64,000 nt of DNA from the human T2T-CHM13v2.0 reference genome, Homo sapiens: NCBI RefSeq assembly GCF_009914755.1, contig NC_060944.1, one strand, 5' to 3'. Made by a program: the position numbers and the translations under genes. Positions 28,903 to 32,405 of this stretch are shown one piece after another; the first letter of the stretch is position 1; the number at the start of each line of letters is the position of its first letter. The notes under the pieces were generated by a model, which worked only from the letters and a program-made list of their open reading frames with translations, had not been told where the DNA came from and made no database searches.

Positions 28903-28917
28903 AGCAACATCATTTCT
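28903..28917 (+). other. Left target-site duplication of the L1PA2 insertion (AGCAACATCATTTCT)
   Basis: Identical 15-mer at 32391-32405. Confidence 0.92.
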
Positions 28918-29179
28918 TTTTTCTTTTTTTTTTTTTTAACCATGGCTCATTTGTATATGTGTGCACCTGACAAGAGGTCTTGGGAAAGAGGTGCATCACT
29001 GTTATTAAATATAGAGAGCTTTGAAACAATTATTAGTGTGGTCAGCCCCATTTTGCTAGCTATGCCAGAATGAACCAACCTGCAAATTCTGCCATTGAGA
29101 AATAGAATTTAATTGTGCAAATACAAGAGGAACTTAGCCAAACAGACTACTAAGTTCCAAATAACTTTAGATAACCTTC
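28918..29179 (-). mobile_element. L1 3'-transduced segment (~240 bp unique DNA, 28938-29179) plus terminal poly(A) (28918-28937)
   Basis: Lies inside the TSDs, between the L1 (TAAA)n tail and a second A-tail; no repeat similarity seen. Confidence 0.85.
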
Positions 29180-32100
29180 TTTATTTATTTATTTATTTAT
29201 TTATTTATTATACTTTAAGTTTTAGGGTACATGTGCACATTGTGCAGGTTAGTTACATATGTATACATGTGCCATGCTGGTACGCTGCACCCACCAACTC
29301 GTCATCTAGCATTAGGTATATCTCCCAATGCTATCCCTCCCCCCTCCCCCCACCCCACCACAGTCCCCAGAGTGTGATATTCCCCTTCCTGTGTCCATGT
29401 GTTCTCATTGTTCAATTCCCACCTATGAGTGAGAATATGCGGTGTTTGGTTTTTTGTTCTTGCAATAGTTTACTGAGAATGATGATTTCCAATTTCATCC
29501 ATGTCCCTACAAAGGACACGAACTCATCATTTTTTATGGCTGCATAGTATTCCATGGTGTATATGTGCCACATTTTCTTAATCCAGTCTATCATTGTTGG
29601 ACATTTGGGTTGGTTCCAAGTCTTTGCTATTGTGAATAATGCCGCAATAAACATATGTGTGCATGTGTCTTTATAGCAGCATGATTTATAGTCCTTTGGG
29701 TATATACCCAGTAATGGGATGGCTGGGTCAAATGGTATTTCTAGTTCTAGATCCCTGAGGAATCTCCACACTGACTTCCACAATGGTTGAACTAGTTTAC
29801 AGTCCCACCAACAGTGTAAAAGTGTTCCTATTTCTCCACATCCTCTCCAGCACCTGTCGTTTCCTGACTTTTTAATGATTGCCATTCTAACTGGTGTGAG
29901 ATGGTATCTCATTGTGGTTTTGATTTGCATTTCTCTGATGGCCAGTGATGATGAGCATTTTTTCATGTGTTTTTTTGGCTGCATAAATGTCTTCTTTTGA
30001 GAAGTGTCTGTTCATGTCCTTCGCCCACTTTTTGATGGGGTTGTTTGTTTTTTTCTTGTAAATTTGTTGGAGTTCATTGTAGATTCTGGATATTAGCCCT
30101 TTGTCAGATGAGTAGGTTGCGAAAATTTTCTCCCATTTTGTAGGTTGCCTGTTCACTCTGATGGTAGTTTCTTTTGCTGTGCAGAAGCTCTTTAGTTTAA
30201 TTAGATCCCATTTGTCAATTTTGGCTTTTGTTGCTATTGCTTTTGGTGTTTTAGACATGAAGTCCTTGCCCATGCCTATGCCCTGAATGGTAATGCCTAG
30301 GTTTTCTTCTAGGGTTTTTATGGTTTTAGGTCTAACGTTTAAGTCTTTAATCCATCTTGAACTGATTTTTGTATAAGATGTAAGGAAGGGATCCAGTTTC
30401 AGCTTTCTACATATGGCTAGCCAGTTTTCCCAGCACCATTTATTAAATAGGGAATCCTTTCCCCATTGCTTGTTTTTCTCAGGTTTGTCAAAGATCAGAT
30501 AGTTGTAGATATGCGCCGCTATTTCTGAGGGCTCTGTTCTGTTCCATTGATCTATATCTCTGTTTTGGTACCAGTACCATGCTGTTTTGGTTACCGTAGC
30601 CTTATAGTATAGTTTGAAGTCAGGTAGTGTGATGCCTCCAGCTTTGTTCTTTTGGCTTAGGATTGCCTTGGCGATGCGGGCTCTTTTTTGGTTCCATATG
30701 AACTTTAAAGTAGTTTTTTCCAATTCTGTGAAGAAAGTCATTGGTAGCTTGATGGGGATGGCATTGAATCTGTAAATTACCTTGGGCAGTATGGCCATTT
30801 TCACGATATTGATTCTTCCTACCCATGAGCATGGAATGTTCTTCCATTTGTTTGTATCCTCTTTTATTTCCTTGAGCAGTGGTTTGTAGTTCTCCTTGAA
30901 GAGGTCCTTCACATCCCTTGTAAGTTGGATTCCTAGGTATTTTATTCTCTTTGAAGCAATTGTGAATGGGAGTTCACTCATGATTTGGCTCTCTGTTTGT
31001 CTGTTGTTGGTGTATAAGAATGCTTGTGACTTTTGTACATTGATTTTGTATCCTGAGACTTTGCTGAAGTTGCCAATCTGCTTAAGGAGATTTTGGGCTG
31101 AGACAATGGGGTTTTCCAGATATACAATCATGTCGTCTGCAAACAGGGACAATTTGACTTCCTCTTTTCCTAATTGAATACCCTTTATTTCCTTCTCCTG
31201 CCTAATTGCCCTGGCCAGAACTTCCAACACTATGTTGAATAGTAGTGGTGAGAGAGGGCATCCCTTTCTTGTGCCAGTTTTCATAGGGAATGCTTCCAGT
31301 TTTTGCCCATTCAGTATGATATTGGCTGTGGGTTTGTCATAGATAGCTCTTATTATTTTGAAATACATCCCATCAATACCTAATTTATTGAGAGTTTTTA
31401 GCATGAAGGGTTGTTGAATTTTGTTAAAGGCTTTTTCTGCATCTATTGAGATAATCATGTGGTTTTTGTCTTTGGCTCTGTTTATATGCTGGATTACATT
31501 TATTGATTTGCGTATATTGAACCAGCCTTGCATCCCAGGGATGAAGCCCACTTGATCATGGTGGATAAGCTTTTTGATGTGCTGCTGGATTCGTTTTGCC
31601 AGAATTTTATTGAGGATTTTTGCATCAATGTTCATCAAGGATATTGGTCTAAAATTCTCTTTTTTGGTTGTGTCTCTGCCAGGCTTTGGTATCAGAATGA
31701 TGCTGGCCTCATAAAATGAGTTAGGGAGGATTCCCTCTTTTTCTATTGATTGGAATAGTTTCAGAAGGAATGGTACCAGTTCCTCCTTGTACCTCTGGTA
31801 GAATTTGGCTGTGAATCCATCTGGTCCTGGACTCTTTTTGGTTGGTAAACTATTGATTATTGCCACAATTTCAGCTCCTGTTATTGGTCTATTCAGAGAT
31901 TCAACTTCTTCCTGGTTTAGTCTTGGGAGAGTGTATGTGTCGAGGAATTTATCCATTTCTTCTAGATTTTCTAGTTTATTTGTGTAGAGGTGTTTGTAGT
32001 ATTCTCTGATGGTAGTTTGTATTTCTGTGGGATCGGTGGTGATATCCCCTTTATCATTTTTTATTGTGTCTATTTGATTCTTCTCTCTTTTTTTCTTTAT

Positions 32101-32390
32101 TAGTCTTGCTAGCGGTCTATCAATTTTGTTGATCCTTTCAAAAAACCAGCTCCTGGATTCATTACTTTTTTGAAGGGTTTTTGTGTCTCTATTTCCTTCA
32201 GTTCTGCTCTGATTTTAGTTATTTCTTGCCTTCTGCTAGCTTTTGAATGTGTTTGCTCTTGCTTTTCTAGTTCTTTTAATTGTGATGTTAGGGTGTCAAT
32301 TTTGGATCTTTCCTGCTTTCTCTTGTGGGCATTTAGTGCTATAAATTTCCCTCTACACACTGCTTTGAATGCGTCCCAGAGATTCTGGTA
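29180..32390 (-). mobile_element. L1PA2, 5'-truncated (~3.2 kb)
   Basis: Near-consensus ORF2 and 3' UTR; GAG (aactcgtcatctagc) rather than the L1HS ACA/ACG diagnostic; gtgcacattgtg, ccaccacagtcc, gtgatattcccc. Confidence 0.93.
29412..32390 (-). pseudogene. L1 ORF2p remnant (RT + C-terminal CCHC; endonuclease domain absent)
   Basis: 689-aa ORF 29887-31956 with [10 protein letters not shown]-terminus (CWRGC...HCWWDC...GGN*) in ORF 29412-29984; frameshifts in A-runs near 29970-29976 and ~32180. Confidence 0.95.
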
Positions 32391-32405
32391 AGCAACATCA
32401 TTTCT
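32391..32405 (+). other. Right target-site duplication of the L1PA2 insertion
   Basis: AGCAACATCATTTCT; the minus-strand empty site reads TT/AGAAA, close to the L1 endonuclease TT/AAAA. Confidence 0.92.

What the first reader, a model, noticed from the sequence alone, without database searches (positions are those of the whole stretch)
28903..32405. L1PA2 insertion carrying a ~240-bp 3' transduction
Seen: the L1's 5' junction (32390) abuts AGCAACATCATTTCT (32391-32405). The matching copy is not next to the L1 tail but ~260 bp further on, at 28903-28917. On the minus strand the insert reads TSD, truncated L1PA2, (TAAA)n tail, ~240 bp of unique DNA (29179-28938), A14GA5 tail, TSD. The empty site is TT/AGAAA. 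Established: this is the architecture of L1 3' transduction, i.e. read-through past the weak L1 poly(A) signal. Inference: the 240 bp was copied from the flank of a source L1PA2 elsewhere and tags that source and any sibling insertions. Repeat annotation alone would likely treat it as local unique DNA.
Basis: partly seen in the sequence, partly recalled or inferred. Interest (0 to 1): 0.8.

Follow-up and report, generated by a model that had tools for sequence, protein, structure and literature searches.

The report
L1 insertion carrying copied chr14 DNA
A truncated, dead L1 jumping gene on chromosome 20 dragged along 242 bases copied from chromosome 14 when it inserted a few million years ago, which is a well-known and ordinary by-product of L1 copying.

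Summary
On the minus strand the window reads: 15-bp target-site duplication (TSD), 5'-truncated L1 (3184 bp), (TAAA)n tail, 242 bp of non-L1 DNA, A14GA5 tail, same 15-bp TSD. The 15-mer occurs only at these two junctions.

The 242 bp has exactly one other copy in this assembly, at chr14:54,108,637-54,108,904. It differs by 3 substitutions and a 26-bp tandem duplication. Homology stops exactly at the tail junction and at the poly(A) addition point.

No L1 sits next to the chr14 copy. The nearest same-strand L1 ends 9.6 kb upstream and is only 94% identical. The chr14 boundary reads TTT/AAGAAG, an L1-endonuclease-type site, as expected for the empty allele of a lost source L1.

The best reading is an ordinary L1 3' transduction whose progenitor is absent from CHM13 (confidence 0.85). 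Still open:
- The L1PA2 label fits by divergence only.
- No outgroup genome was available.
- No sibling insertions were found.
- No known poly(A) hexamer lies near the cleavage site.

The mechanism is long known and catalogued genome-wide, so interest is low.

The parts
32391..32405 (-). Target-site duplication, copy at the L1 5' end (minus-strand reading AGAAATGATGTTGCT)
   Evidence: Exact 15-mer found only here and at 28903-28917. L1 homology of two longer copies stops at 32390.
29207..32390 (-). 5'-truncated L1: about 3.0 kb of ORF2 split over three reading frames, plus the 3' UTR. It was incapable of copying itself from the moment it inserted.
   Evidence: RVT_1 E 6.4e-46. Minus-strand frames of 102, 775 and 199 aa overlap, so there are at least 2 frameshifts. 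96-98% identity to genomic L1 copies. Star-branch divergence 1.22%.
29180..29206 (-). Internal patterned tail AAA(TAAA)6, read as the genomic A-tail of the source L1 that was transcribed through
   Evidence: Read directly. Tails patterned in the same way up to the flank occur in at least 5 of 29 fetched relatives, but the query included the tail, so this count is biased.
28938..29179 (-). 242 bp of non-L1 DNA copied from chr14:54,108,637-54,108,904 (the transduced segment). Two more bases, 29180-29181, are shared between tail and parent.
   Evidence: Only 2 places in the genome match: the window itself and chr14 (2 of 2 candidates scored). Alignment A1 shows 3 substitutions and a 26-bp indel. 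A 25-mer at its start occurs only at these 2 places with up to 2 mismatches. No Rfam match.
28918..28937 (-). Terminal poly(A) tail A14GA5, not templated at the chr14 parent
   Evidence: chr14 continues TGTAAAGC where chr20 has the A run.
28903..28917 (-). Target-site duplication, copy at the 3' end of the whole composite
   Evidence: D7.

Best explanation
This is a single L1 retrotransposition event that carried a 3' transduction.

An L1 once sat in plus orientation at chr14:~54,108,636 (T2T-CHM13 coordinates), with a (TAAA)n genomic tail. It was transcribed past its own tail and 242 nt into the chr14 flank. The RNA was cleaved and polyadenylated after ...ATGGTT. L1 endonuclease nicked chr20 at TT/AGAA, and reverse transcription primed on the new poly(A) tail. 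It copied the chr14 flank, the source tail and 3184 nt of L1 before stopping, and a 15-bp TSD was generated.

Shown: the architecture, the single TSD, the chr14 parent copy with sharp boundaries, and the absence of an L1 at the parent site in this assembly.

Inferred: that a source L1 once occupied the chr14 site, was never fixed, and was lost. The CHM13 chr14 sequence would then be the pre-insertion allele. The age is roughly 4-7 Myr, of L1PA2 grade.
For: 1. One 15-bp TSD brackets L1 + tail + 242 bp + poly(A), and none brackets the L1 alone.
2. The 242 bp has a single parent on chr14. Homology starts at AAGAAGG, directly after the internal tail, and ends where the chr20 poly(A) starts.
3. The chr14 copy has no poly(A), and no direct repeats sit at the homology boundaries, so it is the ancestral copy.
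4. The chr14 boundary GATTT/AAGAAG matches TT/AAAA at 5 of 6 positions in the required orientation. Only 1.47% of positions in 110 kb of chr14 do so (1614 of 109,994), or 3.7% if the 2-nt junction ambiguity is allowed for.
5. The ages agree. The L1 star branch is 1.22% (0.95% without CpG), with 19 private substitutions in 2698 columns. By my arithmetic that predicts about 3.4-5.9 differences over 242 bp on two branches; 3 are seen.
6. The internal tail is patterned right up to the junction with no pure-A run, as in genomic L1 tails of relatives. The distal tail of the same age is nearly pure A.
7. The extra DNA lies 3' of the L1. Catalogued chimeras have it 5' (passages).
8. 3' transduction is common (passages; abstract of PMC13009371 in the listing), and non-reference sources are documented (Table 4 passage).
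Against: - No L1 adjoins the chr14 copy in CHM13.
- Of 12 blastn alignments of the chr20 L1 across 110 kb of chr14 (80 kb upstream and 30 kb downstream of the parent copy's start), the nearest plus-strand L1 ends 9.6 kb upstream. It is only 94.35% identical, too diverged to be the source.
- None of 18 recalled poly(A) hexamer variants lies within 40 nt upstream of the cleavage site. The nearest is AATAAT at -97.
- No sibling insertion shares the tag.
- No paralogous filled or empty site exists in the assembly.
- No outgroup or other human haplotype could be examined.
Confidence: 0.85

Rival explanations
1. Template-switch or RNA-ligation chimera. L1 reverse transcriptase began on the poly(A) tail of an unrelated chr14 transcript, copied its last 242 nt, then jumped to (or had been ligated to) the 3' end of an L1 RNA. 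No source L1 ever sat on chr14.
For: There is no L1 at the chr14 parent site. A single TSD is equally expected under this model. L1 chimeras with other RNAs exist (passages).
Against: - Catalogued chimeras have the foreign RNA 5' of an L1 3' end. Here the order is reversed.
- The chr14 5' boundary falls on an endonuclease-type site, which has only a 1.5-3.7% chance expectation.
- The junction lacks the pure-A run expected at the end of a polyadenylated L1 RNA.
- There is no Rfam RNA in the piece, and it has only 2 genomic copies.
Confidence: 0.07
2. Two separate events. The L1 inserted first with the 15-bp TSD. A short retrocopy of a chr14 transcript later inserted into the L1's A-rich tail, and its own TSD is hidden in the A run.
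For: A-tails are good L1 endonuclease targets (established knowledge, not tested here). There is no L1 at the chr14 parent site.
Against: - It needs two rare events at one 30-bp spot.
- No TAAA units or second TSD are visible distal to the 242 bp; the distal tail is A14GA5 only.
- The chr14 boundary motif would be a coincidence.
- The ages of the L1 and the 242 bp agree.
Confidence: 0.04
3. Read-through or splicing from the plus-strand L1 that lies 9.6 kb upstream on chr14 (54,096,387-54,099,019). The acceptor-like ...TTTAAG/AAGG at the parent boundary would have joined the flank to the L1 tail.
For: A plus-strand L1 exists upstream, and the chr14 boundary has an AG dinucleotide.
Against: That L1 is only 94.35% identical to the chr20 L1 over 2638 bp. 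The transduced piece is about 98.8% identical to its parent, and other genomic L1s reach 98%.
Confidence: 0.01

Closest known systems
L1 3' transduction (read-through retrotransposition). Primary papers by Moran 1999, Goodier 2000 and Pickeral 2000 were seen only as entries in the reference list of PMC4862182. The mechanism is described in passages of the Hoyt et al. preprint and of PMC9311842.
   Same: The layout is L1 3' end with its own tail, then unique flank DNA, then a second poly(A), all inside one TSD at an endonuclease-type site. The flank maps to one other locus.
   Different: The parent locus carries no L1 in this assembly. No recognised poly(A) hexamer lies near the cleavage site.
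Genome-wide CHM13 transduction catalogue made with modified TSDfinder (Hoyt et al. preprint 10.1101/2021.07.12.451456; passages read)
   Same: It covers the same assembly and the same kind of event. It reports 183 highest-confidence L1 3' events, with lower-confidence bins in its Table S13.
   Different: Its high-confidence events have identified parent elements, and this one lacks a parent L1. I could not see the supplement (bioRxiv supplements are closed, and the journal version is not held). I therefore cannot say whether this locus is listed.
Transductions from non-reference (polymorphic) source L1s (PMC9311842, Table 4 passage)
   Same: The source element is absent from the reference assembly, while the offspring carries the tag.
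   Different: Those are recent L1HS/Ta polymorphisms. This event is of L1PA2-grade age, so the source is more likely lost than still segregating (inference).
L1 chimeric insertions with U6, 5S, Alu or mRNA (PMC11838501, passages)
   Same: Two unrelated sequences were inserted in one target-primed reverse-transcription (TPRT) event inside one TSD.
   Different: In those chimeras the foreign part is 5' of the L1 3' end. Here it is 3' of a complete L1 3' end plus tail.

Membership tests
L1 3' transduction | L1 3' end with its own A-rich tail, followed by non-L1 DNA and a second poly(A) tail | tested here: met
   direct reading; RVT_1; the L1 3' end aligns to genomic L1 copies.
L1 3' transduction | One TSD brackets the whole composite, and no TSD brackets the L1 alone | tested here: met
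   The 15-mer occurs only at 28903 and 32391. No other direct repeat pairs the L1 5' junction with the internal tail junction among the 20 repeat families shown, out of 36 found.
L1 3' transduction | L1 endonuclease-type target site (TT/AAAA-like) | tested here: met
   AATT/AGAAAT matches 5 of 6 positions. The background frequency of a match of at least 5 of 6 in the window is 1.06%.
L1 3' transduction | The extra DNA has a parental copy elsewhere, with homology bounded by the tail junction and the poly(A) site | tested here: met
   chr14:54,108,637-54,108,904.
L1 3' transduction | The extra DNA was co-transcribed with a source L1, i.e. the parental copy lies directly 3' of a same-strand L1 in some genome | tested here: inconclusive
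   Only one assembly could be searched, and it has no L1 there. The boundary TTT/AAGAAG is what an empty allele should look like. No other haplotypes or apes were available.
L1 3' transduction | Poly(A) signal 10-35 nt upstream of the new cleavage site at the parent locus (usual, but not strictly defining) | tested here: not met
   None of 18 hexamer variants (a recalled list) lies within 40 nt. The nearest is AATAAT at -97. A T/GT-rich stretch follows the site on chr14.
L1 3' transduction | The whole composite is absent from the orthologous site of outgroups | not testable with these tools
   No primate genomes are held, and the chr20 flank is single-copy in this assembly.
L1PA2 subfamily | Subfamily-diagnostic positions against a curated consensus (Dfam/Repbase) | not testable with these tools
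   No repeat library was available, and I built no consensus.
L1PA2 subfamily | Divergence of the order expected for L1PA2 (about 1.3% from consensus, about 7.6 Myr; Khan et al. 2006 figures recalled, paper not held) | tested here: inconclusive
   The star-branch divergence is 1.22% over all sites and 0.95% without CpG, from the query plus 20 relatives. The relatives were the closest 40 of 6430 candidates, so the sample is biased. The result is compatible with L1PA2 but does not exclude a young L1PA3.
L1PA2 subfamily | It is not L1HS Ta or pre-Ta: the 3' UTR trinucleotide is GAG, not ACA or ACG (diagnostic recalled) | tested here: met
   The minus strand reads ...GATGACGAGTTGG... at about 29295-29307. 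The meaning of this trinucleotide is recalled and comes from no call.
L1 chimeric retrocopy (template switch / RNA ligation) | The foreign RNA is joined 5' of an L1 3' end | tested here: not met
   Here the foreign DNA is 3' of the L1 and its tail.
L1 chimeric retrocopy (template switch / RNA ligation) | The partner is a known cellular RNA (snRNA, rRNA, Alu or mRNA exon) | tested here: inconclusive
   There is no Rfam match, and only 2 genomic copies exist. Whether a chr14 transcript ends there could not be checked, because no annotation of that locus was available.

The most novel reading that the evidence does not exclude
The insert is not a transduction but a reverse-order chimera. An L1 RNA would have been joined 5' of the 3' end of an unannotated chr14 transcript, by template switching or RNA ligation. 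That layout is absent from the chimera catalogues I read, which all place the L1 at the 3' side.
Probability: 0.06. Interest if true: 0.45.

Novelty: new member of a known kind. Interest (0 to 1): 0.18.

Why it matters
The significance is modest.

- It shows that 242 bp left unmasked as 'unique' chr20 DNA is really a retro-copied piece of chr14. This matters for repeat annotation and for paralogue-aware read mapping.
- It marks chr14:~54,108,636 as the probable site of an L1 progenitor that produced fixed offspring but is itself missing from this genome. This is one small data point on how short-lived active L1 sources are.
- No gene is annotated in the window, so no functional consequence is expected.

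Tried and rejected
- **Upstream chr14 L1 as source:** the L1 at 54,096,387-54,099,019 was rejected at 94.35% identity.
- **Sibling insertions:** none were found with the 242-bp query or with a 25-mer at up to 2 mismatches.
- **Paralogous filled or empty sites:** the chr14 upstream flank gave only weak AT-rich hits of 48-85 bases, and the chr20 flank gave only itself.
- **Known RNA family in the 242 bp:** none at E up to 1.
- **TSD-like repeats at the chr14 boundaries:** none. The only repeats there are the 26-bp tandem duplication and AT-rich 10-17-mers more than 50 bp (about 50-110 bp) outside the boundaries.
- **Weak Pfam hit:** the CENPU match of the 102-aa frame scores below the curated cut-off (19.3 against 27.8 bits) and was disregarded.
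- **(TAAA)n tails as a lineage marker:** copies with such tails are not visibly closer to the query, and the query contained the tail, so this was dropped.
- **Papers not held:** the Hoyt journal version, Szak 2003, Pickeral 2000 and Khan 2006. What I say of these is recalled or taken from a reference list.
- **Whether this locus is in print:** searches turned up no paper naming it, but the relevant supplementary tables could not be seen.
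Full report
**Observation.**
- The 15-mer AGCAACATCATTTCT lies at 28903-28917 and 32391-32405 and nowhere else in the window, even with one mismatch allowed. None of 100 dinucleotide-preserving shuffles produced a match.
- The bases flanking both copies differ, so the repeat is exactly 15 bp (family D7).
- On the minus strand the order is: TSD; L1 from 32390 down to 29207 (ending ...AAGTATAAT); AAA(TAAA)6 at 29206-29180; 242 bp of other DNA at 29179-28938; A14GA5 at 28937-28918; TSD.
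- The empty site reads AATT/AGAAAT, which matches TT/AAAA at 5 of 6 positions. In the window, 1.06% of positions (678 of 63,994) reach that match.

**The L1.**
- The minus strand holds three overlapping stop-to-stop frames of 102, 775 and 199 aa. The 775-aa frame carries RVT_1 at E 6.4e-46. What remains is therefore ORF2 from near the end of the endonuclease region to its stop, broken by at least two frameshifts, plus the 3' UTR.
- Two longer genomic L1 copies (L050, L051) align at 98% to the window up to position 32390 and then run on with L1 sequence, while the window runs into the TSD. The 5' truncation point is therefore exact, and the TSD is not L1 sequence.
- A search of the assembly with the last 1221 bp found 6430 candidates. 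Of these, 40 were scored, and all were 96-98% identical.
- I aligned the query with 20 of the 29 fetched relatives. Nine were dropped because their alignment did not span query positions 500-3180.
- The query's branch is 1.22% over all sites and 0.95% without CpG columns. There are 19 columns of 2698 where it alone differs from 20 unanimous others.
- By the figures I recall from Khan et al. 2006 (about 1.3% and 7.6 Myr for L1PA2; paper not held), this is L1PA2 grade. PMC4083085, read in passages, places the L1PA lineages bound by the KAP1 repressor between 26.8 and 7.6 Myr, and L1Hs after that. The sample is biased towards close copies and no repeat library was available, so 'L1PA2' is compatible but not proven.
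- The trinucleotide GAG in ...GATGACGAG... is the non-Ta state, by recall only.

**Where the 242 bp came from.**
- A search of the whole assembly returned two places: the window itself and chr14:54,108,637-54,108,904 on the plus strand, at E 7.8e-101 (2 of 2 candidates scored).
- The pairwise alignment shows three substitutions, all of them transitions that are not at CpG sites.
- It also shows one 26-bp indel, which is a tandem duplication present on chr14 (family D1).
- Homology begins at AAGAAGG. The first two A's are shared with the chr20 tail, so the junction is ambiguous by 2 nt. It ends at ...ATGGTT, after which chr14 reads TGTAAAGC and chr20 reads the poly(A) run.
- The chr14 copy has no A tail, and no direct repeats sit at the homology boundaries. 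It is therefore the ancestral copy and chr20 the derived one.
- A 25-mer from the start of the piece occurs only at these two places in the assembly with up to 2 mismatches. No sibling insertion carrying 25 nt or more of the tag exists in CHM13.

**The source site is empty.**
- Directly upstream of the chr14 copy there is unique, non-L1 DNA. That flank is single-copy apart from weak AT-rich hits.
- A blastn of the chr20 L1 against 110 kb of chr14 (80 kb upstream and 30 kb downstream of the copy's start) gave 12 alignments. The nearest plus-strand L1 ends 9.6 kb upstream and is 94.35% identical over 2638 bp. That is far below the roughly 98.8% of the transduced piece and the 98% of the best unrelated genomic copies, so it is not the source.
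- The boundary reads GATTT/AAGAAG. This is the orientation and motif (5 of 6 to TT/AAAA) expected if a plus-strand L1 had once inserted there, with its TSD starting AAGAAGG.
- Only 1.47% of positions in the 110 kb (1614 of 109,994) match that well on a given strand, or 3.7% allowing for the three possible junction registers.

**Mechanism.** I read this as one L1 3' transduction.
- A source L1 on chr14 had an A-tail that had become (TAAA)n. It was transcribed through that tail, which itself contains tandem AATAAA hexamers, and through 242 nt of flank.
- The RNA was polyadenylated and then inserted at chr20 by target-primed reverse transcription, with 5' truncation.
- The ages agree. The branch lengths predict, by my arithmetic, about 3.4-5.9 differences over 242 bp on two branches. 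Three substitutions are seen.
- The internal tail is patterned right up to the junction, as are genomic tails of relatives such as L019 and L039. The equally old distal tail is almost pure A. This favours a DNA-templated internal tail.
- The source L1 itself is not observed. I infer that it never reached fixation and was lost, so that CHM13 carries the pre-insertion allele.
- Non-reference source elements are documented for recent events (PMC9311842, Table 4 passage).

**Evidence against, and loose ends.**
- The one feature that would prove co-transcription, an L1 next to the parent copy, is absent in the only assembly I could search.
- None of 18 recalled poly(A) hexamer variants lies within 40 nt of the cleavage site. 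The nearest are AATAAT at -97 and ATTAAA at -176 (chr20) or -202 (chr14). A T/GT-rich stretch follows the site on chr14. Use of this site is unexplained.
- Outgroup absence could not be tested. The chr20 flank has no paralogue that could stand in for an empty site.

**Rivals.**
1. A template-switch or ligation chimera of a chr14 transcript with L1 RNA would also give one TSD and an L1-free parent. However, the chimeras catalogued in PMC11838501 (passages) have the foreign RNA 5' of the L1 3' end, the boundary motif would be a coincidence, and the junction lacks a pure-A run. I give it 0.07.
2. A later retrocopy inserted into the L1 tail needs two rare events at one spot and leaves no visible second TSD or distal TAAA units. 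I give it 0.04.
3. Read-through or splicing from the L1 9.6 kb upstream is rejected on identity. I give it 0.01.

**Comparison with what is known, and novelty.**
- 3' transduction by L1 is long established. The primary papers were seen only in the reference list of PMC4862182.
- It has been catalogued for this very assembly: 183 highest-confidence L1 3' events, with lower bins in a supplementary table (Hoyt et al. preprint, passages).
- About a quarter of insertions carry such a tag, according to the abstract of PMC13009371 (listing).
- I could not see the supplementary tables, so I cannot say whether this locus is listed. Searches found no paper naming it.
- It is an ordinary new member of a known kind. 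Its only slightly unusual points are the empty parent site and the missing poly(A) hexamer.
- No gene is annotated in the window, so no functional effect is expected. Interest is low, at 0.18.

Noticed in passing
L002:1607-1657 (chr14:54,108,743-54,108,793): A 26-bp tandem duplication (two exact 25-nt copies spaced 26 nt apart) sits in the chr14 parent, but the chr20 copy has only one unit. Either the duplication arose on chr14 after the transduction, or one unit was lost in the RNA/cDNA or on chr20.
   Followed up: partly
chr14:54,119,259-54,119,971 (within L012): Two abutting L1 alignments lie on opposite strands and have consecutive L1 coordinates: query 2718-3207 on the minus strand and 2476-2707 on the plus strand, at 92-97% identity. 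This is the pattern of a 5'-inverted (twin-priming) L1 insertion.
   Followed up: no
L036 (chr14:9.59 Mb) and L037 (chr22:12.36 Mb): Two L1 copies have the same GAAAA-patterned tail and an identical 3' flank over the roughly 85 flank bases shown. They are probably one insertion copied by a segmental duplication between acrocentric short arms.
   Followed up: no
L031 (chr7:23,178,078-23,179,348): The L1 3' end and its poly(A) are followed at once by a further short match to query positions 822-887 on the same strand. This suggests an L1 inserted into another L1.
   Followed up: no
window 28938-28980 / chr14:54,108,865-54,108,904: The polyadenylation site used by the read-through RNA has no recognised hexamer within 40 nt upstream. 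This is unexplained.
   Followed up: partly
L015, L017, L019, L038, L039: At least 5 of the 29 fetched close L1 relatives also end in (TAAA)n-patterned tails. The query included the tail, so the share is biased. Whether such tails are inherited by read-through was not resolved.
   Followed up: partly
window 28695-28705: An 11-mer, TAAGCAACATC, overlaps the TSD core and the last L1 base at 32389-32399. It recurs 206 bp upstream of the 3' TSD copy (D5). I judged this to be chance.
   Followed up: no
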